DNA of 64,000 bases from an uncultured Candidatus Poseidoniales archaeon (GCA_964613395.1 CAZTGO010000005.1:336-64335); one strand, 5' to 3'. Counted from the first letter of the stretch, positions 33,460 through 58,186 are shown. Notes: generated from the sequence alone by a model not told the origin. A program made the numbers and translations.

Positions 33460-33810
33460 ATGAACATGAGCGACCATGACGATGATCATGAATTGGTTGT
33501 CCAATACCCCACAAATGAAAAAAAATCGATCACCAATAGAATCGTTTCTACGTTAAAAACCATTTTTCATGAAATTACCTTTGGGGTAGGGACATGGGGG
33601 GCAATGCGGCCAATGTTCACGGCTGTTTTGGCCGGAATTCCATTTCTTTTCCTTGGACAACACTTCAACAAGGAGCACGGTAAAGCAAGGGATTGGACCC
33701 TTTTGCAAATTCCACTTGCTCTCACCGTTGTCCTTTGGATTGGACTTTGGCTTTTCTCCATTTTTGATGCATGGAAAACCGCTACAGGAATTGTTGCAAC
33801 TTCAAACTAA
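33460..33810 (+). CDS. Small membrane protein (2 predicted TM helices), function unknown
   Basis: Acidic, His-rich N-terminus MNMSDHDDDHE. TM segments MFTAVLAGIPFLFLG and IPLALTVVLWIGLWLFSIF. Its 3' end overlaps the convergent metalloprotease gene by 4 nt. Confidence 0.5.
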   Translation: MNMSDHDDDHELVVQYPTNEKKSITNRIVSTLKTIFHEITFGVGTWGAMRPMFTAVLAGIPFLFLGQHFNKEHGKARDWTLLQIPLALTVVLWIGLWLFSIFDAWKTATGIVATSN

Positions 33811-34595
33811 GGCTTCCATAATTGGTCTGTTGGTTGTATCTTTTCATTTTTCATATCACTTAGGTCTGCAAGGTCATCGGAGTCAAACTCATTTGGTAAA
33901 TCACCGGTGATGAAATTCATCAGTGATGTCGACTCAATGGCCCAATACATGACAGAATCTTCGTTGTTCGAATGACCAGGATGATCCGAATCTTCATGCG
34001 GTCTTGGAGATTCATACACAAGGTTAACCAAGCCTAAGAGATGGCCGACCTCATGAACAACAACGCTATTTTCTACATCTTCTGCTGAAGGCCTCCCAAA
34101 GAAGCCTTCTGCCTCCTCAATACTATCTTTGAAGATGGCGATTGTTGATCCATCTACAGCTACGCCTAGAACAGAATCATCGACATATGTTCCAGACGGA
34201 AAAATGAGTTGCCAATACAACGTTGAAGTGCTATGAGGGTGCCCTTCTTTTAGTTTCCAGCCCTGGTCCCTTACATCATCTGCACTCCAAGAATCGATTG
34301 AAAATGTGGCTTCAATATAATTGAATTTCACACCTGATGGCTTATCACATACATCCAAAATTCTTTCTTCAAGCATGGTTAAACTCGAAGATTCTGGGCG
34401 ATAACCCGATTCAAAAACAATCTCAAATTCGAGACTTTTATGTTGATCAGAACGTAAGCAAGCCATCGTCAATGAACCCGGAATCCCATGGTTTTCCAAG
34501 TCAAGTACTTCTTTGATTGAATCAGTCAGACAACCTGAAAGACTCGTAGAGATGATGAAGAAAGACATCAAAAAAGCAGTCGATAGCCTCTTCAT
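33807..34595 (-). CDS. Metzincin-like zinc metalloprotease, probable lipoprotein
   Basis: Signal peptide with a lipobox-like end, FFIISTSLSGC. Zinc motif VVVHEVGHLLGL, a downstream HPGHS, and a possible Met-turn DSVMYW. Confidence 0.65.
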   Translation of the reverse strand: MKRLSTAFLMSFFIISTSLSGCLTDSIKEVLDLENHGIPGSLTMACLRSDQHKSLEFEIVFESGYRPESSSLTMLEERILDVCDKPSGVKFNYIEATFSIDSWSADDVRDQGWKLKEGHPHSTSTLYWQLIFPSGTYVDDSVLGVAVDGSTIAIFKDSIEEAEGFFGRPSAEDVENSVVVHEVGHLLGLVNLVYESPRPHEDSDHPGHSNNEDSVMYWAIESTSLMNFITGDLPNEFDSDDLADLSDMKNEKIQPTDQLWKP

Positions 34596-34631: not shown

Positions 34632-35078
34632 TCACCAATCATCGGGAATCTCTAGAGGCGAAAACAACTGACCAGGACTTTGAACATTCGACAACTGTGT
34701 GCGAATAACTTGTTCCCATTGACGTAGCATCAATAGAGCACGGTCAAGTTCAATGTTGATTTCAATGAGCGTAACACGAATGAGCGTATCGAGGATATCC
34801 ATTCGTTGAGCATCGGACCGTTCCAATAGTTTGTCTAGGGAAAATTGCTGAGCATTGTTCGTCGAAACCTCCCTAATTTCCCAAGGCTCTGTCAATTCGT
34901 TAGGTAGTTGTTGATTGGAAGTCAAAGCATACTCTTGAAGTGAAGAAAGCAATTGTTTAATGTGCTTTTGAAAAACAAGAGAAACCTCAAACAAAGGCAT
35001 TTTGAGTTGTTGAAGTAAGTTCACAACTCGCTCTTGAAAGACCACCATTCCATCAATAGTGGGCGTATCTTTGGTCAA
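34632..35078 (-). CDS. Hypothetical helical cytosolic protein
   Basis: 148-aa ORF with a TTG start at 35078; the alternative ATG at 35048 gives MVVFQER. It begins 12 nt downstream of the giant gene 35091..40451 on the same strand. No TM helix and no motif I recognise. Confidence 0.45.
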   Translation of the reverse strand: MTKDTPTIDGMVVFQERVVNLLQQLKMPLFEVSLVFQKHIKQLLSSLQEYALTSNQQLPNELTEPWEIREVSTNNAQQFSLDKLLERSDAQRMDILDTLIRVTLIEINIELDRALLMLRQWEQVIRTQLSNVQSPGQLFSPLEIPDDW

Positions 35079-35090
35079 AGGATGACCTCA

Positions 35091-38000
35091 CTACTTCTTC
35101 GAATTAATGTACTGCCAACCATATGCATTCCATTGCTCCATTGTCCAGCCCTCTGGAAGACCAGTTGGTGGAACAGGTGGTGCAGCAGGCATTGGCGCAG
35201 GTGCCGCAGGAGCGGCTTGTGGAGGAGGAATCGTTGGATTTGGTGGTGATTTGATTTCTGGGACAATTTTGTCACCATCATCCATTGACTCAACGACATC
35301 TGCTGTTTGGTCAGATTCATCTTCAAATGATTCCGCAATGAGCCTTCGACGCATGACCATCGACCATACACCAAAGGAAATTGATCCCAATGCAATGATG
35401 AAGAGTACGATGCTAAAGATCCCTTCTGACGCTTGTTGTGAAAGTGCTTCACCATCGCGTATCGTTTGTTCTTTAACAATGAGTGGGTCAACTGTCATCC
35501 TGTCCATCTCAACACCATCAACGAGTACGAGAACTCGATATTCGATGCTTTCACCTGCAACAACATCAGCTGTATCAGATAGCGTTGCGATGAATTCTTG
35601 ATTGGATGTCACGTCAAGGGTAATGACATCAGTTTCAGACCAAAAACCACCTTCAATCAGTCGTTGTAACGATAATTGAACTTGGCCCGTGCCTCCAACA
35701 TTGACTCCTTTGACAATCATACTTGACATCTGGCCTTGGGTAGGACTCGGGTTCGACCATTGCAGCGATGAACTTTCAGCCTGCAGGTCAACCATCGGAC
35801 CAATAAGTGCCAGTGGCCAAGATGCAAATGGTTCAATCATCGAATTACCATTGGTATCAAATGGATTACCTGCTTCATCTGAACCTGAAATCCAAACATC
35901 AACTGTATATGATTGGAGTAATGTCGTAGCACCTGCGTCCGTCAAATCAAGAGAACCTGTCCAAAAGAATTGGTCTCCGAATGGTGTAATCTCAGGTAGC
36001 AAAACGCTGCCTCTCGAAATTTCTGCCTCTCCTGCCTTCACTCTGTAGTGAAGCACTGCAGGTTTATCGAAATCGAAACCATTTTCATCTCTCGTCTCAA
36101 GTTGTACAAGCAAATCATCGGCATTCCCAATCGAGAGAGGCATATTGGGTTCAACACCGCCAAGAGAAATACCGGCTATTGTAGGTTGGTCACTATCGAC
36201 TGCTAGGCGCACTCTTGGAACAAATGGTGATTGATCTTCTGCTAAGCCTGGCAGGTCATCTAGCTTTAGTCGCAAATCAAGATGACCTGAACGTACAGAT
36301 GGAACAAGCAAATCAAGAGAAAATTCTCCATCTAACCTTGTCGAAGTTTCCCATAGGAATTCAAAGTCCCCGAATGTAACATCAAACGCACCGGCTGGAG
36401 CTGGGGTTTCATCCTCTGAGAATAAGACTCTACCTGTAACTCGTAGTGCCTGTCCTGCACCGATGATGGTCTCATAGTTTTCGTCATTGTAGTGATTCAC
36501 ACCATTTCGAAGTTCAACTGCCCGGATGTGACCGCTCTCGGTATCGAATCTGAAGTCATTATCTAAACTCCACCAATCTTCGCCTAAACCGTATTCAAGT
36601 TCGTGACACGGTGTAATTTCACCTACATTGCAAGGACGGTCGGTAATGAGTATTTTTGGAATGAAATGCGACTCTCCGTTTGTGTCAAAAATTTCAGGGA
36701 AGGTCCATGTTAATTGAAATCTTGCTTGAATCAAAATTTTGCTCTCATTTAATGGGTCAATTTCGACTGTTGAGTAAATGTTTGATACTGCAATGTTGGT
36801 TGAACCAGACGCCATCACCGCACGAGGTAGACCGTTGTCATCTTCTTCCATACTGATGAATATTGATGATTCGTCATCTTCGAAATCACCGCTGAGTGTG
36901 AGTTGAATGTATTGGATATCTTTCCAAGTATTCCGATCGCTAACAACGAGTTGTGCAGTGTAAAGAATACCTGGGTGAAGAGGCTGGTAATCATCGTGTC
37001 CGACAATTGTTGAATTGCCGATATCGACGCTGGGTTGGAATTCTTGACGAATCACATAAGTTACGAGATCTGCATCCCAGTCAGGAACTGTCTCTCCAGG
37101 CCTGTATCCACATGATACGCTACTTTGTGGACAAACTGGACCTCCACCCATTGCGACCTGATTGTTTTGACCATCTTTTCCAGAGACATAGAACGATACT
37201 TTTTGTCCGTGCAATAACATTGAATCATCGATCACCCCTTCAAAGATATTCAAGCCACCAACTTGAGTATCAGGTGAACCAATACTCATGAGTTCATATT
37301 CGTCTGCATTTGGCAACCCATCAAAATTGTAGTCAGTGCATCCGATTGCATCGCTTGCCCTACAGCCTATCCAATAGTGGAGTGAGATAGAATTTGGTGG
37401 ATCAACGGAATCTTGTATCGTGATTGATATAGGTTGTCCACCACCGGTCGCAGCGTGTTGTTCTGACCCATCAATTGGCGTCGCTTGAATGACAAGTGGA
37501 GAATTACCATCGAGAACAAGGCGAATGGAATTGTACGAAGGATTCGCAAACACCGAACCGTTCACCAGGTCAACAGCTTGTACGTAGAACACCATTCCTC
37601 CGGGGTGAGATTCTGTCGGTGAAGTGAATGTAAAGTTGTATTCACCGAAGGCAGGATTTACCTCTTCGAAGAGGACCATAGGCTCTCCAATCGGGTCACC
37701 ATCATACGTCACATTTTGACCAATGATACGGATTGAGAAAGACCCTGCTTCTGGCATAAGTTGAGAACTTTCAAAATGAATACCTCCAGTAAATGTCAAA
37801 TTATATCCGCCACGTACCCAGTCAAAAGAATACAACTCTCGCCCAGTTTCTTCAAAGACTCGCAACCCATCAAGTTGAATGTCATTTTCAATGACGAGAT
37901 CCATGTCTGAAGTTATCCATCCGTTTACTGCTACACCAAGACTATCTTCAACCGTAACAACTGCTTCAGCATCGGACTCATCATTCCAACTCCAGTTAAC

Positions 38001-40451
38001 TATCGTTGGTATACGAATCACCAATTCTCCTTTCGAATTGATGGAAGAAGAACAATTTGTGGTATCAAATTGAATAATACCTGCAGCATCTGATATTGTG
38101 CTGCACGAATCACCCAACTGCCACATAAATGACGGTGTTGGTCCATGAGAATTAAGAATTCCAATTGTTGCTTTGGTCACCCTGTCAACATCATCTCCAT
38201 GAGCCACCGTAGCGATTAAATTTCGATAGATTCCATCGGGTGCTGTTAGACCTCCTTCAAATTCGACGCCCACTGCACGGGTTTGCATCTTGTAGGAAAT
38301 ATCGATATTCGAAATCTTAACTCGACCTGATGTGGCAGCCTTGATCGCTATTGGAACATTGACGGTCCCCTCTCCATTTTCAGGTATGAAATCATTGAAT
38401 GCATCGATGAGGGATGGTGCATCTCGCACCACCGAGCCGACAGCTGATTCATCGGTTGCGACGATTGACGATTCATTGAGGAACAACAATGAACGCCAGT
38501 CCCATGTTCCATCGTTACCAATATCAATTTCTGGTCTATCCGGATATCCTTCTTCAAAATTCAATGTGAATTTGTCAATCTTTGGAGTTATTGTAGCATC
38601 ATTGGTGGTAAGGAAAATCGCATACTTGAGTGTGTTTCCAGCGTCCTCTGTTGAGAAACTTGTCTCTTGATTGTTCGGAGCCTCCTTCCAATTGGTGCCG
38701 TTATCATTTGAAACCATTACTGAAATTGAAGTGCCCACCGGTTCATCCGCAACCCATACAGGTCGAACTTTACCGACCTTTGTACCGGTATTGAAATGTG
38801 GACTTGTCCATTCTCCCGAAGGTTGATATTCAGTTGCATATTCAATGTTAACCCACCAGGAAACTGCAGTTGAACCAATAAGTTGTGCTTTCCAAACAAG
38901 TTCGTTACCCGGGTAAGCAAAGTGGATTGTTTCATTGCTCACAACAGGTTCCCAATGCGTCCCATTGTCTGCGGATATCCAATAATCGACACGGTCACCG
39001 ATAGATGATGCTGACCAGTACGCCTTCATGTTGGCTGAAAGAATCTCATCGCCGCTATTCACGACAGGACCATACCATGTGGTTGTTCCGGGAGCAGGTG
39101 TCGTTTTGTAGGTCCAGCCTGTCCCAAATTCTCTGTAGTATAACGTGGAGCCGGACCAGGTGGAATAACCTGAATCAACGGTGATGAATCGCTTTCCATC
39201 ATATTGCAGGCCGTAACCGAGAGGGGAAATTTGGCGAACGCCTTGTTGCGGTACAAGGGAAGATGATTGGCCTGAAATGGACCATGCTTCCAATTGATCT
39301 CTGTCGTTGTAGTACTGATCTTTTTGGCATCGCATAAAGAACGTCGATTCGTTTACTTCGAGACCACGAACAAGTTGGCCTGTTCTTCCACAATCCCAAC
39401 TAGAACCCGATGAGGAGGAGAATGTGTACATGCTGTCACCACGCTGATATTGACCTGTACCATCGCTGCTAAAGGTGTACGGAACGATGGATCGAGCGGA
39501 GTTGTGGACAATCCATACGACATCTCTTGAGTGGTCGTAAGCTATGGCAACATAGTCTTGCAATTGTGGTGAAACATCGTAGGAGTCTATGCATGTCCAC
39601 ACATCGTCTCTTGAAACATCCATCTCGACGACGCGATGGTACATGACTGGGGCTGTTGAACCATAGGGATATTTGTAGCCGGATAAGATGCCAAACAATC
39701 GTTCGTCATCGGTGAGCGTCCAATCTCTAAAACCATACATTCCATAATAACTGCTCGAATGCTTTTGTGGAAGAGTACACTGCGCTTTGTCAAGTGTGAT
39801 TGTTGATTCGATGGTTGCGTTGTTTGGATATAATCTCTTGACGACGTTATGGAATGAAGATGAGGACCATGTTGACAAAAATAACCAATCATGATGCTTG
39901 AGGATTGCTCCTTGTCCTTGAGCCATAAATGTCGTAGCTGTCTTACTAACTTGTTGGGAGAATCTTGATTCAGTTGCGTTTGATGTGTGAGGTTGCCTTA
40001 AGGAAAAGGAACCGTTGTCTAACCATGCATTTGAGTTTGGGTCTTCTATTGCATCGTTTCCGTGAGGATCAAACAATACCGTTGTATTACCCATTGCAAG
40101 TGTTAGGTCATCGCTTCTATCATCAACGAGTGTATCGAGTCCTTTCACCCAATCTTTTCGTTCATCCGTTACCAATTGCGACCATCCTGTTGCTGATGCT
40201 CCCGACAATGTCAAACTGACATCTGTAACCAGAGCACCCTTTGGAATTTGGATTTCAGCTCCTGTATCAGGGTTCCCTCCCTGATAGAGTGCAATATACT
40301 CCGACGAGCCATCCTTGAAATCGTAGATGTGTCGGGCAACGCCAGCAGCTTGTGCATCATCAACAACATTCGTGAAAACAGGCGACCATGGTGTAAACAT
40401 CATAATGAATATGATGAAAATTGCCGCTCGGCTCGACCGAATTGAATTCAT
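35091..40451 (-). CDS. Giant (1786 aa) surface protein with Asp-box-containing beta modules, C-terminal TM helix and Pro-rich cytoplasmic tail
   Basis: Signal peptide AAIFIIFIMMFTPWSPVFTNVVDDAQA. Two Asp-box (S-x-D-x-G-x-T-W) motifs: SADNGTHW at nt 38952..38975 and SNDNGTNW at nt 38688..38711. TM helix IFSIVLFIIALGSISFGVWSMV. 86-aa tail (nt 35094..35351). Confidence 0.85.
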   Translation of the reverse strand: MNSIRSSRAAIFIIFIMMFTPWSPVFTNVVDDAQAAGVARHIYDFKDGSSEYIALYQGGNPDTGAEIQIPKGALVTDVSLTLSGASATGWSQLVTDERKDWVKGLDTLVDDRSDDLTLAMGNTTVLFDPHGNDAIEDPNSNAWLDNGSFSLRQPHTSNATESRFSQQVSKTATTFMAQGQGAILKHHDWLFLSTWSSSSFHNVVKRLYPNNATIESTITLDKAQCTLPQKHSSSYYGMYGFRDWTLTDDERLFGILSGYKYPYGSTAPVMYHRVVEMDVSRDDVWTCIDSYDVSPQLQDYVAIAYDHSRDVVWIVHNSARSIVPYTFSSDGTGQYQRGDSMYTFSSSSGSSWDCGRTGQLVRGLEVNESTFFMRCQKDQYYNDRDQLEAWSISGQSSSLVPQQGVRQISPLGYGLQYDGKRFITVDSGYSTWSGSTLYYREFGTGWTYKTTPAPGTTTWYGPVVNSGDEILSANMKAYWSASSIGDRVDYWISADNGTHWEPVVSNETIHFAYPGNELVWKAQLIGSTAVSWWVNIEYATEYQPSGEWTSPHFNTGTKVGKVRPVWVADEPVGTSISVMVSNDNGTNWKEAPNNQETSFSTEDAGNTLKYAIFLTTNDATITPKIDKFTLNFEEGYPDRPEIDIGNDGTWDWRSLLFLNESSIVATDESAVGSVVRDAPSLIDAFNDFIPENGEGTVNVPIAIKAATSGRVKISNIDISYKMQTRAVGVEFEGGLTAPDGIYRNLIATVAHGDDVDRVTKATIGILNSHGPTPSFMWQLGDSCSTISDAAGIIQFDTTNCSSSINSKGELVIRIPTIVNWSWNDESDAEAVVTVEDSLGVAVNGWITSDMDLVIENDIQLDGLRVFEETGRELYSFDWVRGGYNLTFTGGIHFESSQLMPEAGSFSIRIIGQNVTYDGDPIGEPMVLFEEVNPAFGEYNFTFTSPTESHPGGMVFYVQAVDLVNGSVFANPSYNSIRLVLDGNSPLVIQATPIDGSEQHAATGGGQPISITIQDSVDPPNSISLHYWIGCRASDAIGCTDYNFDGLPNADEYELMSIGSPDTQVGGLNIFEGVIDDSMLLHGQKVSFYVSGKDGQNNQVAMGGGPVCPQSSVSCGYRPGETVPDWDADLVTYVIRQEFQPSVDIGNSTIVGHDDYQPLHPGILYTAQLVVSDRNTWKDIQYIQLTLSGDFEDDESSIFISMEEDDNGLPRAVMASGSTNIAVSNIYSTVEIDPLNESKILIQARFQLTWTFPEIFDTNGESHFIPKILITDRPCNVGEITPCHELEYGLGEDWWSLDNDFRFDTESGHIRAVELRNGVNHYNDENYETIIGAGQALRVTGRVLFSEDETPAPAGAFDVTFGDFEFLWETSTRLDGEFSLDLLVPSVRSGHLDLRLKLDDLPGLAEDQSPFVPRVRLAVDSDQPTIAGISLGGVEPNMPLSIGNADDLLVQLETRDENGFDFDKPAVLHYRVKAGEAEISRGSVLLPEITPFGDQFFWTGSLDLTDAGATTLLQSYTVDVWISGSDEAGNPFDTNGNSMIEPFASWPLALIGPMVDLQAESSSLQWSNPSPTQGQMSSMIVKGVNVGGTGQVQLSLQRLIEGGFWSETDVITLDVTSNQEFIATLSDTADVVAGESIEYRVLVLVDGVEMDRMTVDPLIVKEQTIRDGEALSQQASEGIFSIVLFIIALGSISFGVWSMVMRRRLIAESFEDESDQTADVVESMDDGDKIVPEIKSPPNPTIPPPQAAPAAPAPMPAAPPVPPTGLPEGWTMEQWNAYGWQYINSKK
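35094..35159 (-). other. C-terminal tail peptide LPEGWTMEQWNAYGWQYINSKK (copy 2 of the shared motif)
   Basis: Hand translation gives GGT CTT CCA GAG GGC TGG ACA ATG GAG CAA TGG AAT GCA TAT GGT TGG CAG TAC ATT AAT TCG AAG AAG. The first 33 nt match the copy at 4482..4547 at 29 of 33 positions. Confidence 0.8.
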
Positions 40452-40529: not shown

Positions 40530-43500
40530 TCAAGTTTCTCGCGAGTCATACCGAATTGGTGAGGATTGGCCACGTACACCATCTTCTTCATCGTCACGTA
40601 CTTCAAACCAATCAACGAGCCAATCGCCATCCGTGTCCCAGTTCATTGGACTGCTACCCTCAGCGAGATGGTCATCATCGAAATCTAGCAGGTACCATCC
40701 AAATTCGTGTTCGCCAACATTTCGATCGGGAGCTGTATGTGGTGAAAATTCATAATAAATCTCCCATGCATCTGTCTTATTCCCTGCAAGAATTATTTCG
40801 TCATCAGAAGCATTGAGTTCAAAGAAACTCACATCATTATCGTTGACGATATACCCGTATTGGTAATCTTGTCCAGCAAATTTATCCATTTTGAGATAGT
40901 TCAAAACAAGTTCATTAGACTGACCGATACCAAGCACTGCTTTCCTCAATTGCCACCACTCCGTAACTAAATTCCCATCAACAGTTAAACCAGATAATCT
41001 CACTGCATTTGGTGACGAGTATTCTTGAAGTGTAAAGGCGTAAAATTCTTGGAAATTTGTATATGGCTCGTATGTACAACCAACTCCGGTGCAGTCCCAG
41101 TTTCCGTCTTGGTCTGGGTCTTGATTCGCATCATTTGGGTCCGCTGGGTCGAGGGTGAACCACGTGTATTCCAAATCAGGTCGTTGAAGTTGCCCAGTAT
41201 CTGAATTGAGCGACAACGGTAAGCAAGATGATGTGGATGTAGTACAGGGACCTCCAGTTCCCGGGTCAATCCATTGAACTTGAATTTTTAAGAAAGAACT
41301 GAAATTATCGTTGGATTCATTCCATCCTAACTTGTATTCATACCAATCTGGCAACATATCTCCATCAGAATCATTATCGCTTGGATTGCTTCCATACTTG
41401 AACACTTCACGACCATCAGAATAATTGTAATCTTGAACATGCGAAAGAACAACGCCATTTTCCACAGTCGTGATGAATGTAACGCTATCACCATCGGAAT
41501 CATTGAGGTCAGGCCTCGTGTTGTTCATCCATTCCATCTGATTGGTGAAAGGTAGATCACCAATACCGGGTTGAATTTGTTGCGAAGAAGGCGTAAACAC
41601 ACGATTGTCCCAAACACCTTGAGTTGCCGGTTGGTCAAAGGTCGTTCGCCCATACCACCCATCATGGTCACCATCATAATTTATGTCAAATGGATTGAGT
41701 GGATTTGAAGACCAGTGGTTGATTGTCGTTGTGTCGTTCATTCCAAAGATTGCGTAACAATATTCCCAACCATCAGGAATACCATCACTGTCTGAATCCG
41801 GGTGTGTTGGGTCAGCGACTCCTCTTAATGACCGATTGAAATTTCCAGAATCGAGTGAATTGATTTTTTCCATTCGATCAAGCGAATCCGGGCCTTTCGC
41901 AATAAAGTCTTGATACAAAGCAAGTTGTGATTGCAAAATCGAGTAACCCAATTCTTCTTGATAAGCGAGCATGGCATCTTCCCCGAAATCGATGATGCCA
42001 AGTTCAAGTGGCACCGTCGCCCTCATGTCGAATTTACCCCACGTTCTCGACTCCCATTCACGTAAATTGGAAAACAGTTCATCTTGTGAGATGTCTCCAT
42101 CTCCATTGCAATCATAACTATCATCGTCTGAGTCAAGGTACACATCTCCATCGATGAGAGGATTCATACTCCATCTATTTTCATCCAAATCCCATGATGT
42201 AAACCAATATTCAAATCCGTCGTACATTCCGTCGCCATCTGTATCGCTTGACGTTGGGTCAGTCATCCCTTGTAGAACAGAAATGAATGCATTCGGAGGC
42301 TCGCCGGATTGCCAAGCATTGAAATCATCAAGGAGGCGTTTTCCACGTGTGTTCTTTGAGATGAGCATGTTGAAAATTCGTTGTGCTTTTTCGGTCGGCT
42401 GTTGAAGATCGCCATCAATATGGAGGAGAGGTGCATCACTCGGATGTTCGATTCCGTTATCGGGCTGCATTGTTGCGAGGGCAAACTCTTGTTTATCGAT
42501 AAGGCCGTCTTCGTCACCATCGAAATTTCCATCGTCTGGCACGAGTGGATTGAGCGTCCACACTTCAGCGGAAGAGTTCCACGCCGTGAAGAGCAACTCC
42601 AATCCGTCGAGCATCCCATCACCATCTGTATCGATGTTGTTTGGGTCTGTCGTCATACCAGATATATTTCGAACTCCTTCATCGATGAAACTACCGAATG
42701 AGGATGATGTTGGAATGCCCGGCCATTGTTGTAATGCGTAGGCTGTGCCAACAGTTGTCACGAACCATTGTGGAGAACTCCTGTTGCTCTGGATCTCAGA
42801 GAAGATTGGATCAATCGAATTGTACTCCTCCCAATTCGTCATACCATCATCATCTGCATCTTCCCAGCGGTCTTTCGAATCGAGGGGATTTAATGTCCAG
42901 CCATCATCGAGTAGATTCCATCGGGCAAACCAAATCTCCCATCCGTCTGGCATACCATCTGTATCCGAGTCAGAATCCCAAGGATTTGCAGCACCGATAC
43001 TGTATGTGGTTTGGCTGTTGTATAGTTCACTAAATGCCCTGTCAGAAAACGTGTCTTCTGGTTCGCCGTAGTCGTAGATGTGGTCGAACAAATTTGTTTC
43101 AAATGCCATGGGGAATTCTTCGCCGTCAAACGTACCATTGCTCACAAACAAGTCACTTCGGAGATGATATTCGAGGTAGTTGACAAATTGCTCGTTCAAT
43201 GTCAATACGCCATCATGGTTGATGTCGTATCCATCACCATCAGGGTTGCCGAGAACATCGGTTGAATTGAGTGGATTGACACCATTGTATTCGGGCGACC
43301 ATGTACAACGTCCGTTTGATTCCCAGCCATCAGGGAGCGAATCTCCGTCTGAATCGATAGAATTTGGATCTGCAACACTCCAATTTGCTACAGCTTCAGG
43401 AACTTCTCCGAAATTTTCAATCAACTCACCCTCCAAGCCTGCAAGCCTCACGAGTGACCATTGATACTCACAAAGGTTGGCAAGCCCATCGCTATCTGCA

Positions 43501-46271
43501 TCCCAATCAGCGTCTTCTGGACGGTGAGGGTCAAGGGTCCAATTATTTCCGCCAGTGAACGTTGTTCCGATCCAACGACGATGTTCAATCTCCCAACCAT
43601 CTGGCATTCCATCCCCATCCGAATCTACATTGGTTGGGTCGGTTCCAAAATCGATGTTCATCTGATTGAGGTATGTCGCGTTGGCTTGCTGACCAACTTG
43701 ACTGTCGCATTGATACACCATTTGAATGGTGTAATAGCACCAAAGCGTGCTTTCCTTGTAGTAAAAGCCGTAGTATTCTGCACCGTCTGACAAACCATCG
43801 CCATCCGTGTCGCCTTCTTGTGGATTCGTTGAATTAAATCCACCTAATGTTCGTTCAACATACCTGTATTCGTCGAGATTGACCCACAATCGTTCTAGAA
43901 CACCATCACCAGATGCATCGAGGTCAATGCCATCGCCGTCAAAATCAAATTGAGCATCCCAAGGATCGGTTGGGTCAAGACCATGCTCATATTCCCAACC
44001 ATCTGGCATACCATCCGCGTCCGAATCATTTGAGAGTGGATTGATGAGCTTTAGATTTGAGAATTGACCTGGTGCTGCTGCAGCAAAGACTGTTGAAACC
44101 CCATCTTGATTCACTGAAATCACCGAAGAGATTTCACCTGGAATTCGGGTTTGGTCTTGCAGCCCATACACTGCAGCATAATCACCAGCAATGGCCCATA
44201 CTCCCCATTCAGAACCAACTAGTATTTCATCACCAGTTGGATATATCGAATGAATGCTATTCGTTTCACGTATTGTCTTTCCTTCAACTCCTGGATGAGC
44301 AAAGAGGCCACTGTGCGTGATTTGTCCTGAATTTGTGTCCATTCGATGAACACCCCCAGGTGTACCAAACCACAAAACCTGGCTATTTGATGCAGAAGGG
44401 CCATCAAAAACAACCGTTCGAATTTCTGCAGGATTCCCTTGTGAACCGATGACCATAGGGCGAACAGCATCGACTTGTGGGCCAAAATTTGATTGCTCGG
44501 GGTCGTAGTACGCCACCCATTCCCCTACAGCTTCATCACGACCAGTCGCTGTTTCAAATATGACCAAACCAACATTCGTTCCAACAGCAAGCAATGATTC
44601 ACCGTTGGAATTTATGCCATGGGCAACTGCGTTGACACTTGCGTTACGTTCGAACAGTGAAGTTACAATCCCGGAGCCAAGTTCATGTGTTGATTCGATG
44701 TCAAAGGCCGAAGATAATTCAACGATGAGCCCCGTTCCCTTTGGACCAAGACCGAGTACTGTTGGCAATCCATCTTGAAATGTCAACATTGTGATTGCGT
44801 TGATTTCGCTTGTTGGTATATGAGTCCATAAATCAAGTGAAGCAAACGAACCATCGGCTAGGAGTGGTACGATGGTCATGCCCTTCGTGGTCGCTAAAGC
44901 GATTGCAAAAATTTCTCCATCCCCAGAGACATACACTGCATCATTAGCTTTCATGCCTTGTGGAAACCATTGGTGATTGGATTGGTTTGTTTCAAGATTA
45001 ACCGAGGTCAAGCCATAAGTTGTAACCACATGAAGCGTTTGTTCAAATGAAAGTAATGAGTTAATATCGTGGTGTATCGATTCGATTCCACCTTGTTGCT
45101 CAAGCATCAATGGATGTCTCACAACCGTTGAATCATTGAGAAGTAACGATGACTTGAGGCCTGGGTAAATCGTATTGCCGTCATCGAAATGAATGTTATA
45201 TTCTTGAATATTTGAAAGGGCTTCGCCAACCTCTAATGCCGTAAGTGTTCTCGATAAATCCTCAGTGATAACACCATCACGGTTGCGATCCCAACCATCG
45301 TTATCTGCATCGACGAGAGAATTGGTTTTATTTAATGGGTCGAGACCAAAATGTACTTCCCAACCATCGGTCATACCATCCCCGAAAGAAGGGAACAGTG
45401 GTCGGATTCTACCCACCCATTCATATCGGTCAGAGTCATCAAGAAGAGGGTCTGTACCCAACCACATATCGTCACCAATCATTCCTGTCGTATTCGTTGT
45501 ACAGGCTTGAAGAATGTTGATGAATGAAGCATTTGAATTCGTTCCGATGTATGGCCAAGAATTTCTGACTGCTCCGTCGGGCAGGCTTGCTTTGCACCAC
45601 AAACCATCGAGTTCGGTAACAAATGATGAATTTGCTCCGTAAATGTATTCTTCTGAAGATGTAAACCGTTCGGGTATAGATAAATCGCCATCGCGATTGA
45701 TGTCAAAACCATCTTGGTCAGGATCGTCGGTCAAATCACTTGCGTTGAGGGGGTCAAAACGCAAACAATTGTATCGCATTTGGATGACATTGTATCCGCC
45801 AATTCGATCGCACATGTATGCCTCAAACCCATCAGGAAGCCCATCACCATCTGTATCTGCAGTTCTCGGGTCAAGGTACATTCTATTCCCGAGTTCATCT
45901 GTTTTTCCAGTCAAACCTCGAGGGAACCCCGGAGCCGTACAATTCGCAGGATATGGCCAACAAAATTCCTCAGTGCTGTTTAATCCATCATGATCAAAGT
46001 CCAATGCTGCATCAGTCGCATCGTTTTTGTCCAAACCTTTGATTGAAATCTCTCTTCCATCAACATTCGTCCAGTTCATCCACTCTTCAAAGAGAGATTC
46101 GTGAACATCGGGAATGAGGTCACCATCGGAGTCCGTGTTTTTTGGTGGCTCTTGTGTCGTGTCATCAGGATGCACGTTTGCCACTGGCGAAACAGCAGGA
46201 AATTGCGACATGAACAACAGGCTGGAGATGACTGCAAGTGTCGTCAAAATCGTTGTCTGACTTCGCCTCAT
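40530..46271 (-). CDS. Giant (1913 aa) secreted protein with about 25 thrombospondin type 3-like calcium-binding repeats and a central propeller-like region; no TM anchor
   Basis: Signal peptide ILTTLAVISSLLFMSQFPAVSPVA. Recurrent D-x-D-x-D-G-x-x-D-x-x-E units include DTDGDGLPDGFE, DSDADGMPDGWEYE, DSDGDGMPDGWEIE, DSDTDGMPDGWEIW, DSDSDGIPDGWEYC and DTDGDWLVDWFE. Residues about 390-760 are G/S/T/V-rich without such repeats. The acidic C-terminus ...RDDEEDGVRGQSSPIRYDSRET has no hydrophobic helix. Confidence 0.9.
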   Translation of the reverse strand: MRRSQTTILTTLAVISSLLFMSQFPAVSPVANVHPDDTTQEPPKNTDSDGDLIPDVHESLFEEWMNWTNVDGREISIKGLDKNDATDAALDFDHDGLNSTEEFCWPYPANCTAPGFPRGLTGKTDELGNRMYLDPRTADTDGDGLPDGFEAYMCDRIGGYNVIQMRYNCLRFDPLNASDLTDDPDQDGFDINRDGDLSIPERFTSSEEYIYGANSSFVTELDGLWCKASLPDGAVRNSWPYIGTNSNASFINILQACTTNTTGMIGDDMWLGTDPLLDDSDRYEWVGRIRPLFPSFGDGMTDGWEVHFGLDPLNKTNSLVDADNDGWDRNRDGVITEDLSRTLTALEVGEALSNIQEYNIHFDDGNTIYPGLKSSLLLNDSTVVRHPLMLEQQGGIESIHHDINSLLSFEQTLHVVTTYGLTSVNLETNQSNHQWFPQGMKANDAVYVSGDGEIFAIALATTKGMTIVPLLADGSFASLDLWTHIPTSEINAITMLTFQDGLPTVLGLGPKGTGLIVELSSAFDIESTHELGSGIVTSLFERNASVNAVAHGINSNGESLLAVGTNVGLVIFETATGRDEAVGEWVAYYDPEQSNFGPQVDAVRPMVIGSQGNPAEIRTVVFDGPSASNSQVLWFGTPGGVHRMDTNSGQITHSGLFAHPGVEGKTIRETNSIHSIYPTGDEILVGSEWGVWAIAGDYAAVYGLQDQTRIPGEISSVISVNQDGVSTVFAAAAPGQFSNLKLINPLSNDSDADGMPDGWEYEHGLDPTDPWDAQFDFDGDGIDLDASGDGVLERLWVNLDEYRYVERTLGGFNSTNPQEGDTDGDGLSDGAEYYGFYYKESTLWCYYTIQMVYQCDSQVGQQANATYLNQMNIDFGTDPTNVDSDGDGMPDGWEIEHRRWIGTTFTGGNNWTLDPHRPEDADWDADSDGLANLCEYQWSLVRLAGLEGELIENFGEVPEAVANWSVADPNSIDSDGDSLPDGWESNGRCTWSPEYNGVNPLNSTDVLGNPDGDGYDINHDGVLTLNEQFVNYLEYHLRSDLFVSNGTFDGEEFPMAFETNLFDHIYDYGEPEDTFSDRAFSELYNSQTTYSIGAANPWDSDSDTDGMPDGWEIWFARWNLLDDGWTLNPLDSKDRWEDADDDGMTNWEEYNSIDPIFSEIQSNRSSPQWFVTTVGTAYALQQWPGIPTSSSFGSFIDEGVRNISGMTTDPNNIDTDGDGMLDGLELLFTAWNSSAEVWTLNPLVPDDGNFDGDEDGLIDKQEFALATMQPDNGIEHPSDAPLLHIDGDLQQPTEKAQRIFNMLISKNTRGKRLLDDFNAWQSGEPPNAFISVLQGMTDPTSSDTDGDGMYDGFEYWFTSWDLDENRWSMNPLIDGDVYLDSDDDSYDCNGDGDISQDELFSNLREWESRTWGKFDMRATVPLELGIIDFGEDAMLAYQEELGYSILQSQLALYQDFIAKGPDSLDRMEKINSLDSGNFNRSLRGVADPTHPDSDSDGIPDGWEYCYAIFGMNDTTTINHWSSNPLNPFDINYDGDHDGWYGRTTFDQPATQGVWDNRVFTPSSQQIQPGIGDLPFTNQMEWMNNTRPDLNDSDGDSVTFITTVENGVVLSHVQDYNYSDGREVFKYGSNPSDNDSDGDMLPDWYEYKLGWNESNDNFSSFLKIQVQWIDPGTGGPCTTSTSSCLPLSLNSDTGQLQRPDLEYTWFTLDPADPNDANQDPDQDGNWDCTGVGCTYEPYTNFQEFYAFTLQEYSSPNAVRLSGLTVDGNLVTEWWQLRKAVLGIGQSNELVLNYLKMDKFAGQDYQYGYIVNDNDVSFFELNASDDEIILAGNKTDAWEIYYEFSPHTAPDRNVGEHEFGWYLLDFDDDHLAEGSSPMNWDTDGDWLVDWFEVRDDEEDGVRGQSSPIRYDSRET
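40601..46133 (-). repeat. Dispersed intragenic repeats encoding TSP3-like Ca-binding loops
   Basis: On the + strand, 43992..44027 (ttcccaaccatctggcataccatccgcgtccgaatc), 43590..43625 (ctcccaaccatctggcattccatccccatccgaatc) and 42936..42971 (ctcccatccgtctggcataccatctgtatccgagtc) are near-copies. Many more diverged copies occur through the gene. Confidence 0.8.
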
Positions 46272-53636: not shown

Positions 53637-56600
53637 TTACTGCTGTGGTTGTTGGTAATTTGGGTCTGGCACCCATTGATTGTTTGCAGCATCCCAAAGC
53701 CATCCAGGATGTTGAGAGACTTGCTGAGGCTGTGCTTCCTGTTGGTTCTGAGCTTCTTGTGTAGGTTCTCCTGCAGCAGGAATTTCAACAGCATCGTATT
53801 GTTTCTTTTTGGCCCAAGCATACGGATCTTCTCCGGTTTCTTCAGCTCCATCTTGTAGGACAGCTTCATCAAATTCTTCTTCAAATTCGATGAAGAAATA
53901 TGCACCGATACCCAGAAGAATGATGACACCGATAATGATCATAATAATCATCATCACAGATGAACCAGCGTCAGCTCCTGTTGATACACTTAGACCAAAA
54001 TCAGCTGCTTGAGATTCACCTTCAAATGTGAATTCTTGATCACCCATTTCAAAGAAAATTTCTTTCTTTCCATCAACACCAAGCTGTTGGCTCGAAATTT
54101 CCATTCTCCAAGTTCCGTCTGGTCCAACAACAGTTGCATTCACTCGGACATTACCGTCAGTAAATCTTGCAACAACGGTACTTCCGGGGAGACCTTCCCC
54201 AATGAACACTGCGTTATCGTCCTCAGTTACCAATCCAGAATCTTCGCGCTCAACCTTGAATGAGATAGCACGTACGAGGAAATCAACTCGGTTCGAGTAG
54301 ACCTTCGCCTCTTGCTTGTCTTCAGCAACAAAGATGACCGAATCAAGTGACCATTCCGATATCTCAGATGTGGTGGATGCAATAGAAGATGCTGGATTGT
54401 AGGTTGCGTATCCGTTGGCATCTATGATGACATAGGCGTAGTATAGATCATCCTCTGAAGTTGATGCATCATCGTACACATCGAATTCAAGGGCATCAAC
54501 AGAAGTTCCAATACCATCTGGGTCGCTAAAGAATTGGGCAAGATTGATTCTTGCACCTCCACCACATCGATCAAAACTCTTTGATTTTTCATCGCAGAAG
54601 ATGGTAATTGTGTTCTTCCAACCTGTTTCATTAAACACTGGGTCTATGTTATCCGCATCAGCAGGGTTATTGATAATGATTCGAATTCGTTCCTCTTTAG
54701 AGTATTTGTCGCTATCATATGCCTTGACAACAACCTCATACTGTTGGTCATGGATTAATCGGGAGGTATCCCAAACAGCTGACCAGGCCCCATTTGGTGC
54801 AAATGTAGTGACTGGCAAGGGTCCGTCATTCATAGGGAAAGCACTACCACTTGCAAGGTCGTACACTTCGATGTCAACTCGGGATACTGCTCCATCATTG
54901 TCAACTGCAACCCCTTGAATGACAGTGTCTTGACTTGCTCGAACAACACCCATGTTGAGACCGCCAGTTGACATATCTTGGGCTCCAATCCAGGTTACTT
55001 GTACAAACGGTGCCTGATTTTCGTTGATGATATTGAGTGTTCGCGTCTCAGGCACACACGGATCTGGGTCGTCGATACAGAAATCAGAATCTGCAGCCCA
55101 GACTTTGAAATTGTATGAACCACTTGGTAGTTCATTGAAATCCCAGTCATATTCCCAACTTGGTCCACCTTCCGCATAAAAGTGGCTTTGGTAGTCGTTT
55201 GGACCAGTGATGTCAAACCAAATCTGTTGAATATCGTTTCCTTGAACGCCGGAATATGGATCAAAAGATGTTCCGGTAAAGGTAACAACACCTTTGTCGT
55301 GAGTTGAACCATCGTTCGGTGTTTCAACGAGGATTGTTGGGGGAACGAGATTTAATTTGAAATCTCGTACCTGTACAGGTGAATATTCTAAGCCATCGAA
55401 TGAACGAATCCTAAATGTAACATCTTCTTCACCTTCGGGGTGGGCAGATAAATCCCAATCAAATGACCATGTTTTGAACGGATGGTTTTCTTGCGTGATT
55501 TCAGTGACACCTGAAGTATCAAATGCAGAGTACCAATCTGTTGAATCAGGTGGTTGGATTTCGATGTCATGGATAAGTCCAAACTGCTTCTCATAAGCAG
55601 TGTTGTCATTCGCATATGGCCATTTTACTCCATCCCATGACTCCCCAGTTATTGTGACAATTGTTGCAAATGAAGTTCCATCTGCTTGGTCAACCGATAC
55701 ACCTGGACGGAGATTGTCAAGGTTGATGACATCATCGACAGGTCCTGAAAGGATGTAATCGAAGCTTTTTCGTCCTTTTTCAAATTTAAATGCCTCAACA
55801 GAGTAAAATGGCTTTTCTCTGCCGTTGAGACAATCCGGATCGTCTTCGTCGACAACTGTATCTCCATCGTTATCGATACCATCCGCACATGAGTTCTCAG
55901 CGTCACCTGTTTGAGGTGGGCTCGTTCCTGGAATGACATAATTTATATCACCTACAACGTGATTCCAATTTCTGTCAAGAAGGAAATCTGATGGCAATGA
56001 GACTTGAGGAGTAAATCCGAACACGTCTGTTTGCATGTTAAAGATTGGAAGGCCAGTTGCATCTTTGATGATCACGGTTGCACCGTATACGTTACTGTTT
56101 TTCGCCTTCACTTGATATCGAACCAATTCACCTTTCTGAATTTGAGTACCCCATTCAGTATTTTGGTTTTGAACGTGAATCATAGTTTCATCAAAATTCT
56201 GGACATTGGCAAATGCAAATACAGATGCGTTGTTGAGGAGTTCGAGTGCCAGTGGCATATGCCTCGGTGGCATGTTAGCAGTCATTGGTACGTTCAAACA
56301 TTCGGTCTGGACATAAGGGCACTCTGCACCAAGCCATTGGACCATGACTGGATACTGTGCACCAAATCCTGGCGAAGGCATTTGTTCTGATTGAACTGTG
56401 ACTCGGGATTCTGTAACGTTGTAAACTTGTGAGACATTGGACCAAGAATTGCCTGAAAAGTATGCAATAGAACCATACTTCATGCCGTTGTTGTTGTCAT
56501 AATGTGAAATGTTTCCAGCGTAGCCTCCACTTGATACACCAGTGTTGTCCTGGACATTGACAATGCCACCTCTTGAGCGTATAATGTCACCGTTGCTGTT

Positions 56601-58022: not shown

Positions 58023-58186
58023 ACTTACACCTATCTCTGCCATCTCAACAGAGAATATAATACTGTGCCTCATTTGTCAATTTAAGAATATCAAAAATGT
58101 GTGAAAGTATCAAATTTTATGCAAGAAATCGGCGATATCTTTCCACATAACTTCAATAAATAATGAAATAGAGGTGGTAATTCGAT

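What the first reader, a model, noticed from the sequence alone, without database searches (positions are those of the whole stretch)
35094..35351. Second copy of the GWTMEQW tail, conserved at DNA level between two otherwise unrelated giant genes 30 kb apart
Seen: over GGTCTTCC.G.GGG.TGGAC.ATGGAGCAATGGA, the coding DNA of this tail and of the tail at 4482..4547 is identical at 29 of 33 positions. Three of the four differences are synonymous third-position changes and one changes Ala to Glu. The flanking Pro-rich spacers differ in length (about 60 versus about 30 residues) and in sequence. Inference: purifying selection acts on the terminal peptide itself, or the tail module was recently exchanged between genes. 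A 148-aa helical cytosolic protein (34632..35078) begins 12 nt after this gene's stop on the same strand and is a candidate partner.
Basis: partly seen in the sequence, partly recalled or inferred. Interest (0 to 1): 0.7.

Follow-up and report, generated by a model that had tools for sequence, protein, structure and literature searches.

The report
Shared cytoplasmic tail of Poseidoniales surface proteins
Two unrelated giant surface proteins in this window end in the same ~27-residue peptide, which turns out to be an undescribed, strongly conserved cytoplasmic tail module carried by many families of membrane-anchored surface proteins in the abundant marine archaea Poseidoniales (Marine Group II).

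Summary
In detail: 29 of 33 bases match and 14 of the last 23 residues are identical. The tail is the only significant similarity between the two proteins. The DNA identity follows from amino-acid constraint, because synonymous sites are saturated, so there is no recent exchange or gene conversion.

The tail is a lineage-wide module, PP[LIV]PxxGLPxGW[TS]M[ED]QWxx[YF]Gxx[WY]L[DE], followed by 3-8 residues and the stop. A profile search found 629 protein clusters.

Carriers fall into at least 8 unrelated families, including S8 subtilase, PKD/CARDB/Ig, beta-propeller and TSP3 proteins. Their layout is signal peptide, ectodomain, one TM helix, basic stop-transfer, a 33-144-aa acidic/Pro-rich disordered linker, then the tail. 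The tail is therefore cytoplasmic.

AlphaFold2 gives a confident extended Pro-rich segment plus a 15-residue helix. There is no match in Pfam, NCBIfam, PDB or the searchable literature.

The 148-aa ORF is a syntenic neighbour of one carrier family only (8 of 8 loci, against 0 of 103), so it is not a general partner.

Best reading, by inference: a common cytoplasmic docking or clustering handle for surface proteins. Its function has not been tested.

The parts
35094..35180 (-). Tail module of gene B: PPVPPTGLPEGWTMEQWNAYGWQYINSKK, the last 29 residues before the TAG stop at 35091..35093
   Evidence: Translation. It matches the family consensus. AlphaFold2 gives pLDDT about 86-92 with a helix over MEQWNAYGWQYINSK.
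35181..35366 (-). Cytoplasmic linker of gene B: basic stop-transfer (RRR), an acidic stretch with the family-specific motif DQT..V..M..K.VPEI (35253..35312), then a Pro/Ala-rich spacer
   Evidence: In orthologues the spacer is rich in indels, while DQT...VPEI and the tail are conserved.
35367..35423 (-). Single C-terminal transmembrane helix of gene B (GIFSIVLFIIALGSISFGV)
   Evidence: Hydropathy scan. Positive-inside statistics across the family.
35091..40451 (-). Gene B: 1786-aa type I surface protein with a signal peptide and a large ectodomain that has no Pfam family
   Evidence: Orthologues at 60-70% identity occur in 8 Poseidoniales loci.
4482..4568 (-). Tail module of gene A: PPLPPGGLPAGWTMEQWIHYGDQWLERQK
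4569..4973 (-). Cytoplasmic linker of gene A: RKMKK stop-transfer, an acidic region conserved within the family, then a long Pro-rich spacer
4974..5030 (-). C-terminal transmembrane helix of gene A
4479..9452 (-). Gene A: 1657-aa membrane-anchored S8 subtilase with CARDB/Ig-like domains. It is followed by adenylate kinase, as in 17 orthologous loci.
   Evidence: Pfam PF00082 at E = 1.5e-45. Synteny.
34632..35078 (-). 148-aa helical cytoplasmic protein (ORF148). It belongs to the operon of the gene B family and is not part of the tail system in general.
33807..34595 (-). 262-aa lipoprotein-type zincin (HEVGH). It is the third conserved member of the cluster gene B, ORF148, ORF262.

Best explanation
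Shown: the GWTMEQW tail is a translated, strongly constrained module of about 27 residues, PP[LIV]PxxGLPxGW[TS]M[ED]QWxx[YF]Gxx[WY]L[DE]. It ends the cytoplasmic tails of at least 8 unrelated families of single-pass surface proteins in Poseidoniales (MGIIa and MGIIb). Each family inherits it vertically. It sits at the end of a disordered acidic/Pro-rich tether of 33-144 residues, after the TM helix. Predicted: it folds on its own into a mini-domain, an extended Pro-rich segment packed against a short aromatic-faced helix. Inferred: it is a common cytoplasmic handle. All these surface proteins present the same small folded knob on a flexible leash under the membrane. There it docks to one shared cytoplasmic or membrane-proximal factor, or to copies of itself, to position, cluster, retain or turn over the surface proteins. 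The partner is not encoded next to the carriers.
For: All 121 motif instances in 119 genome loci are in frame, and 113 of them end 19-26 residues after the LP. Positions that the search pattern did not fix are nearly invariant: P-7 109/121, P-6 110/121, L/I/V-5 119/121, P-4 121/121, G-1 121/121, E/D+7 119/121 and W/Y+16 119/121. A profile search found 629 clusters at E <= 1e-3 and 128 at E <= 1e-10, nearly all with the match at the C-terminus. In 114 of 121 cases a TM helix lies 33-144 aa upstream. K+R averages 2.8 in the 12 residues after the TM against 0.33 before it, and 105 of 113 sequences have more after. Two type II proteins (L058, which has a SAP domain, and P0130) carry the motif N-terminal of the TM, again on the cytoplasmic side. 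Carriers are diverse: S8 subtilase, PKD, CARDB, Ig-like, beta-propeller and TSP3. Purifying selection is shown, and vertical inheritance. AlphaFold2 on 105 sequences gave mean pLDDT 82.9, with a helix at residues 26-40 and a confident non-helical Pro-rich part. No ORF cluster in the 119 loci is shared across carrier families; non-tail clusters reach at most 22 loci.
Against: No partner has been identified and no experiment exists. The fold is a prediction on a 41-residue peptide, and I could not inspect its coordinates. Foldseek returned nothing. Conservation of almost every core residue could also reflect a linear motif read by an enzyme, or by the ribosome tunnel, instead of a fold.
Confidence: 0.55

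Rival explanations
1. Recent exchange or gene conversion copied the tail module between the two genes, which would explain the DNA identity.
For: 29 of 33 bases are identical between genes 30 kb apart.
Against: Same-codon use at identical residues is 5 of 11 against 4.8 expected (P = 0.57). The flanks are unrelated. Tails of one genome are no more alike than background (0.28 against 0.29), whereas orthologous tails are (0.45). Tail subtypes are specific to each family.
Confidence: 0.03
2. The tail is an interfacial amphipathic helix. Its Trp/Tyr face re-inserts into the cytoplasmic leaflet and acts as a second membrane anchor or curvature sensor.
For: There is a predicted 15-residue helix with an aromatic face, and its hydrophobic moment is about 0.37. 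Trp and Tyr favour membrane interfaces (general knowledge).
Against: The core carries a net charge of about -2.7 and has no conserved basic residues. The invariant PPxP..GLP.G segment and the Gly within the helix are not explained. AlphaFold2 is also confident for the Pro-rich part, which suggests intramolecular packing.
Confidence: 0.15
3. ORF148, the 148-aa helical protein, is the binding partner of the tail.
For: It starts 12 nt after the stop of gene B behind an SD-like GAGGT. It is present in 8 of 8 B-family loci. The family is strongly conserved, with 422 homologues.
Against: It is absent from all 103 other tail-bearing loci with at least 500 nt of downstream sequence. Gene A in this same window is followed by adenylate kinase instead. 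Its fold has no informative neighbour. A role specific to the B family, whose tail subtype is YGW..[IV][DE], cannot be excluded.
Confidence: 0.08
4. The tail is a degenerate WW-type domain, a beta-hairpin that binds proline-rich ligands.
For: The best PDB profile match is the atypical SAV1 WW2 domain (2dwv), aligned without gaps over 30 residues. The LPxGW start and the G..Y spacing are shared.
Against: That match has E = 0.13 and is not significant. None of 105 tails hits Pfam WW. AlphaFold2 predicts a helix and no strands. There is neither room nor conservation for the third strand or the second Trp...Pro.
Confidence: 0.05
5. The tail acts as a nascent-chain element. It pauses the ribosome near termination so that the upstream TM helix can insert co-translationally.
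For: It is rich in Pro and Trp. Its position just before the stop, 19-26 residues from LP, would place it in the exit tunnel at termination. The analogy is to SecM and TnaC (general knowledge).
Against: The distance to the stop varies. Variants carry 30-50 extra residues, and in two proteins the motif lies 60-90 residues before the TM. The last residues are not conserved. A confident fold is predicted.
Confidence: 0.05
6. The tail is a C-terminal degradation or quality-control tag, read by a cytoplasmic or membrane protease to control surface-protein turnover.
For: It has a near-universal C-terminal position on a disordered leash.
Against: The extreme C-terminal residues are variable. Internal and N-terminal placements exist. 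There is no evidence for a cognate protease.
Confidence: 0.09

Closest known systems
Lineage-specific C-terminal sorting tags of surface proteins (PGF-CTERM/archaeosortase, PEP-CTERM/exosortase, LPXTG/sortase, GlyGly-CTERM/rhombosortase)
   Same: One short conserved C-terminal element is shared by many unrelated surface proteins of one lineage, and several paralogous carriers occur per genome.
   Different: Those tags are tripartite: motif, then TM helix, then a basic cluster at the very end. The motif lies outside the membrane and is cleaved. Here the TM comes first, a 33-144-aa cytoplasmic linker follows, and the motif is cytoplasmic with no hydrophobic stretch after it. No NCBIfam model matches.
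PP-fold miniproteins (avian pancreatic polypeptide, NPY, PYY)
   Same: About 30 residues, with an N-terminal proline-rich extended segment, a turn, and an amphipathic helix with an aromatic face (PP-fold anatomy from general knowledge).
   Different: There is no detectable homology (hhalign probability 0.5%). Those are secreted vertebrate hormones, whereas this is a cytoplasmic tail domain of archaeal membrane proteins. Packing of the Pro segment on the helix is inferred, not seen.
WW domains, especially the atypical SAV1 WW2 domain (PDB 2dwv)
   Same: The LPxGW start, an aromatic-rich segment of about 25 residues, and association with proline-rich sequence.
   Different: The match is not significant. 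The predicted structure is helical. The third strand and the second Trp are missing.
Cytoplasmic tails of adhesins in wall-less bacteria (Mycoplasma P1/P30, with Pro-rich tails and aromatic/Gly-rich EAGR boxes in terminal-organelle proteins) and of eukaryotic adhesion receptors
   Same: Type I surface proteins whose Pro-rich cytoplasmic tails couple them to an internal scaffold. The analogy comes from general knowledge.
   Different: No sequence relationship was tested or expected. No scaffold is known in Poseidoniales. This is a functional analogy only.

Membership tests
WW domain (Pfam PF00397) | Significant match to the WW profile | tested here: not met
   0 of 105 tails match WW at E <= 10. 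The best PDB profile hit is SAV1 WW2 at E = 0.13.
WW domain (Pfam PF00397) | Three-stranded antiparallel sheet with two Trp 20-22 residues apart and a C-terminal Pro | tested here: not met
   AlphaFold2 gives a helix at residues 26-40 and no strands. Only 3-8 unconserved residues follow the [WY]L[DE].
Archaeosortase/exosortase/sortase-type C-terminal sorting signals | Tripartite order: signature motif, then hydrophobic TM, then a basic cluster at the extreme C-terminus | tested here: not met
   The TM lies 33-144 aa upstream of the motif. The basic cluster directly follows the TM. No hydrophobic segment follows the motif.
Archaeosortase/exosortase/sortase-type C-terminal sorting signals | Match to a curated NCBIfam/TIGRFAM C-terminal sorting-domain model | tested here: not met
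   NCBIfam has no hit on the tails of genes A and B at E <= 0.1.
PP-fold (pancreatic hormone family) | Sequence homology to PP, NPY and PYY | tested here: not met
   hhalign probability is 0.5% over 6 columns.
PP-fold (pancreatic hormone family) | A polyproline-II segment packed against an alpha-helix | tested here: inconclusive
   The secondary structure and pLDDT are compatible. Coordinates could not be inspected and Foldseek found nothing.
Subtilase S8 (carrier gene A only) | Full-length match to Peptidase_S8 | tested here: met
   PF00082 at E = 1.5e-45, covering profile positions 1-288 of 288.
Ribosome arrest peptides (SecM/TnaC type) | Fixed spacing between the motif and the stalling or stop codon, with conserved residues at the peptidyl-transferase centre | tested here: not met
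   The distance from LP to the stop is 19-26 residues, and 49-74 in variants. Internal copies exist, and the last residues are variable.

The most novel reading that the evidence does not exclude
Poseidoniales, one of the most abundant groups of planktonic archaea, tether most of their large surface enzymes and adhesin-like proteins to a so far unknown submembrane scaffold, or to each other. They do so through one universal cytoplasmic mini-domain of about 27 residues, a Pro-rich segment packed on a helix, carried on a disordered leash. This would be a prokaryotic counterpart of receptor-to-cortex coupling. It would also be one of the smallest autonomously folding natural domains.
Probability: 0.25. 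Interest if true: 0.8.

Novelty: new variant of a known kind. Interest (0 to 1): 0.58.

Why it matters
Marine Group II archaea are uncultured, and almost nothing is known about their cell envelope. This work defines a single recognisable tag that marks a whole set of their surface proteins: extracellular S8 proteases, PKD/Ig-like proteins and beta-propeller proteins. That gives three things. First, a simple sequence rule to inventory the anchored surface proteome in MAGs. Second, a synthetic-peptide-sized bait to fish for the cytoplasmic partner. Third, a candidate new mini-fold. It also corrects annotation: 'extracellular' subtilisins of MGII (PMC6864105) are membrane-anchored type I proteins with a conserved cytoplasmic tail. 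A Pfam or NCBIfam model could be built directly from alignment A2.

Tried and rejected
- The first tail search with the search for homologous proteins was rejected as too short. The 44-aa query found only 5 fragments because of the word index.
- Pfam and NCBIfam gave nothing on the tail.
- The PDB sequence-profile search gave only a non-significant WW hit.
- Foldseek of the 41-residue model against PDB gave no match, probably because the model is too short.
- Foldseek of ORF148 gave no match below E = 1.9.
- hhalign against PP-fold hormones showed no homology.
- The IMG/VR viral scan with the DNA pattern found 0 matches.
- Literature string searches for the motif, and for MGII surface-protein tails, found nothing relevant.
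- A search for a neighbour gene shared by different carrier families found none.
- A regex search for a second copy of gene D's alternative Trp-rich tail in the 119 loci found none.
- Considered and rejected: gene conversion, a sortase-type signal, a WW domain, and ORF148 as a general partner.

Full report
**1. The observation**

On the minus strand, gene B (35091..40451, 1786 aa) ends in ...PPVPPTGLPEGWTMEQWNAYGWQYINSKK*. Gene A (4479..9452, 1657 aa) ends in ...PPLPPGGLPAGWTMEQWIHYGDQWLERQK*. The 33-nt stretches 35130..35162 and 4518..4550 are identical at 29 of 33 positions. BLASTP of the two whole proteins finds nothing significant except this 23-residue tail (E = 2e-5). Gene A is an S8 subtilase with CARDB/Ig-like domains, and gene B has no Pfam family. 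No third copy of the motif exists in any frame of the window.

**2. The DNA identity is not an independent signal**

Among the 11 residues that are identical in both tails and have degenerate codons, 5 use the same codon. Codon usage in the window predicts 4.8 (P = 0.57). The flanks are unrelated. Across genomes, I compared tails at their variable positions.

| Pair type | Identity at variable positions |
|---|---|
| Same carrier family, different genome | 0.45 |
| Same genome, different family | 0.28 |
| Background | 0.29 |

Tails therefore evolve vertically with their carriers. There is no concerted evolution and no recent exchange.

**3. What the tail is**

- 115 loci are labelled Poseidoniales, Poseidoniaceae, Thalassarchaeaceae, or generic Euryarchaeota, Methanobacteriota or Thermoplasmatota MAGs.
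- 4 loci lie in MAGs labelled as bacteria. At least two of them (L006, L051) carry near-identical copies of the archaeal genes, and the other two (L064, L080) group with archaeal carrier families. These look like mis-binned contigs.
- The same pattern has 0 matches in 2.9 million viral contigs.
- All 121 instances are in frame. In 113 of them the stop follows 19-26 residues after the LP.

Positions that the pattern did not fix are almost invariant.

| Position relative to LP | Residue | Count |
|---|---|---|
| -7 | P | 109/121 |
| -6 | P | 110/121 |
| -5 | L/I/V | 119/121 |
| -4 | P | 121/121 |
| -1 | G | 121/121 |
| +6 | M | 95/121 |
| +7 | E/D | 119/121 |
| +16 | W/Y | 119/121 |
| +17 | L | 98/121 |

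The 12 positions upstream of the core carry only compositional information of about 1 bit. The core is therefore PP[LIV]PxxGLPxGW[TS]M[ED]QWxx[YF]Gxx[WY]L[DE].

A profile of seven tails, searched with HMMER against 1.84 billion representative proteins, found 629 clusters at E <= 1e-3 and 128 at E <= 1e-10. Nearly all carry the match at the very C-terminus. Pfam, NCBIfam and the searchable literature hold nothing for it.

**4. Where it sits**

In 114 of 121 cases a hydrophobic TM helix lies 33-144 residues upstream. Five of the other seven are cut by the locus edge; L017 has only a short ORF and L058 carries the motif internally. The 12 residues after that helix hold on average 2.8 Lys+Arg, against 0.33 before it, and 105 of 113 sequences have more after. 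The carriers have N-terminal signal peptides. The layout is therefore signal peptide, ectodomain, TM, basic stop-transfer, acidic/Pro-rich linker, tail, and the tail is cytoplasmic.

Two proteins have the opposite orientation. L058 starts with a SAP domain and has no signal peptide, and P0130 is similar. Both carry the motif N-terminal of their TM, again on the cytoplasmic side. What is conserved is the compartment, not the C-terminal position as such.

The carriers form at least 8 families by ectodomain similarity. They include S8 subtilases, PKD/CARDB/Ig-like proteins, a beta-propeller protein and a TSP3-repeat protein. Single MAGs hold at least three carrier families, which is a lower bound because the scan was truncated. 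Orellana et al. (PMC6864105) report one to four 'extracellular' S8 subtilisins in all MGII MAGs, and gene A belongs to that class. The linkers carry further motifs specific to each family, such as DQT..V..M..K.VPEI, ANSMYGG..E.FQQP, ESIESIAG and ATYGAVAAAP.

**5. Selection**

The table compares the 26-residue tail core with the 30 residues upstream of it in orthologues.

| Orthologue set | Tail core identity | Conserved non-Met/Trp residues on a different codon | Upstream 30-residue identity |
|---|---|---|---|
| Gene B (9 sequences) | 0.68 | 0.68 | 0.20 |
| Gene A (18 sequences) | 0.71 | 0.67 | 0.16 |

The upstream spacer is also rich in indels.

**6. Structure**

AlphaFold2 on the last 41 residues of gene B, with 105 aligned tails, gave mean pLDDT 82.9. 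Residues 11-40 averaged about 86-92. The model has a helix over MEQWNAYGWQYINSK and a confident non-helical Pro-rich segment before it.

On a helix, the conserved W, Y/G and W/Y fall on one face. The invariant Gly in the middle of that face, together with the invariant PPxP..GLP.G segment, suggests that the Pro-rich segment packs onto the aromatic face. That anatomy resembles a PP-fold or Trp-cage. This last step is inference, because I could not inspect coordinates and Foldseek returned nothing for so short a model.

- There is no homology to PP-fold hormones (hhalign probability 0.5%).
- The best PDB sequence match is the atypical WW2 domain of SAV1, but at E = 0.13. Pfam WW does not match, and the predicted structure is helical. 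A WW relationship is not supported.
- The core has a net charge of about -2.7. This argues against a helix that binds an anionic membrane.

**7. The 148-aa ORF**

ORF148 (34632..35078) starts at a TTG 12 nt after the stop of gene B, 6 nt behind a GAGGT. It has 422 homologues of 146-151 aa, all hypothetical proteins without a Pfam family. Those that carry a source name are labelled Poseidoniales, Poseidonia or generic archaeal MAGs. They share an invariant C-terminus, GPGQLFSPLxIPEDW. AlphaFold2 gives a confident helical bundle (pLDDT 86, pTM 0.82) with no PDB neighbour.

tblastn finds ORF148 in all 8 loci that hold orthologues of gene B. In 7 of these the zincin lipoprotein ORF262 follows it; the eighth locus ends inside ORF148. 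It is found in none of the 113 other tail-bearing genes' loci, 103 of which have at least 500 nt of downstream sequence. Orthologues of gene A are followed by adenylate kinase, as in the window. More generally, no ORF cluster in the 119 loci is shared across carrier families. ORF148 is therefore an operon partner of the gene B family and not the general partner of the tail. A B-specific interaction remains possible.

**8. Mechanism**

Shown:
- The module is cytoplasmic and strongly constrained.
- It is lineage-wide and specific to membrane-protein tails.
- It sits at the end of a disordered leash.
- It is inherited vertically.

Predicted:
- It folds on its own as a Pro-rich segment plus a helix.

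Inferred:
- It serves as a common handle by which many different surface proteins dock to one shared factor under the membrane, or to each other. The purpose would be positioning, clustering, retention or turnover.

I put about 0.55 on this package as a whole. The descriptive part is close to certain, and the docking function is about one in three. The rivals are an interfacial amphipathic helix, a degron, a translational pause element, a WW-like hairpin, a sortase-type signal and gene conversion. They are listed with their tests in the report sections; the last three are contradicted by results here.

**9. Comparison and novelty**

The closest concept is the lineage-specific C-terminal tag shared by surface proteins, such as PGF-CTERM, PEP-CTERM and LPXTG. 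The defining tripartite order of those tags is not met: here the TM comes first and the motif is cytoplasmic. The closest structural analogy is the PP-fold miniprotein, without homology. The closest functional analogy is the Pro-rich cytoplasmic tail of adhesins in wall-less bacteria or of eukaryotic receptors, and that is analogy only.

I file the tail as a new variant of the kind 'shared terminal tag of surface proteins'. No curated family or paper covers it in the resources available here. It is a solid and easily testable new domain in an ecologically dominant uncultured archaeal order. Its function is unknown, so interest is moderate to high and not exceptional.

Noticed in passing
window 53637..58073 (-), last ~25 codons (about 53640..53714): A third giant type I protein (beta-helix and Ig domains, TM at aa 1373-1391) ends in a different Trp-rich cytoplasmic tail, ...HPGWLWDAANNQWVPDPNYQQPQQ*, after a Gln-rich spacer. 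It may be a second class of tail. No similar end was found in the 119 fetched loci.
   Followed up: partly
window 34632..35078 (-): ORF148 belongs to an orphan, strongly conserved Poseidoniales family (422 homologues, invariant C-terminus GPGQLFSPLxIPEDW). Its predicted helical bundle is confident (pTM 0.82) but has no PDB structural neighbour.
   Followed up: yes
window 33807..34595 (-): A 262-aa protein with a lipobox-like signal (LSGC) and a zincin HEVGH motif follows ORF148 in 7 of the 8 gene B family loci (the eighth, L089, ends inside ORF148). Together they form a conserved three-gene cluster.
   Followed up: partly
L042, L082, L090, L075, L102, L109 (tail ends); proteins P0025, P0038, P0146, P0147: One carrier family has the tail followed by about 30 extra residues ending in an acidic-hydrophobic terminus, LLDDLDL/F*. 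This may be a second short linear motif. These genes often sit in tandem with a paralogue that has the plain tail.
   Followed up: no
L058 1069..3468 (+); P0130: These are type II proteins with the tail motif N-terminal of the TM. L058 starts with a SAP (DNA-binding-type) domain, then has the motif at aa 145, a TM at aa 238-256 and a 540-aa outer part.
   Followed up: partly
cytoplasmic linkers in L001-L119 (listing): Short conserved motifs specific to each family lie between the TM and the tail: ANSMYGG..E.FQQP, ESIESIAG, ATYGAVAAAP, DQT..V..M..K.VPEI and ELIP.GSAL. This suggests a modular, SLiM-rich cytoplasmic tail.
   Followed up: no
L006, L051, L064, L080: Contigs in MAGs labelled Salipiger, Verrucomicrobiales and Yoonia carry tail-bearing genes; L006 and L051 are nearly identical to Poseidoniales genes (for example L006 with L035, and L051 with L054) and L064 and L080 group with archaeal carrier families. 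They are most likely mis-binned archaeal contigs.
   Followed up: partly
window 40530..46271 (-): This is a 1913-aa secreted giant without a TM or the tail. It carries repeated DSDGDGMPDGWE-type (TSP3-like) motifs and lies directly upstream of gene B. The same neighbour is seen in L089 at 72% identity.
   Followed up: no
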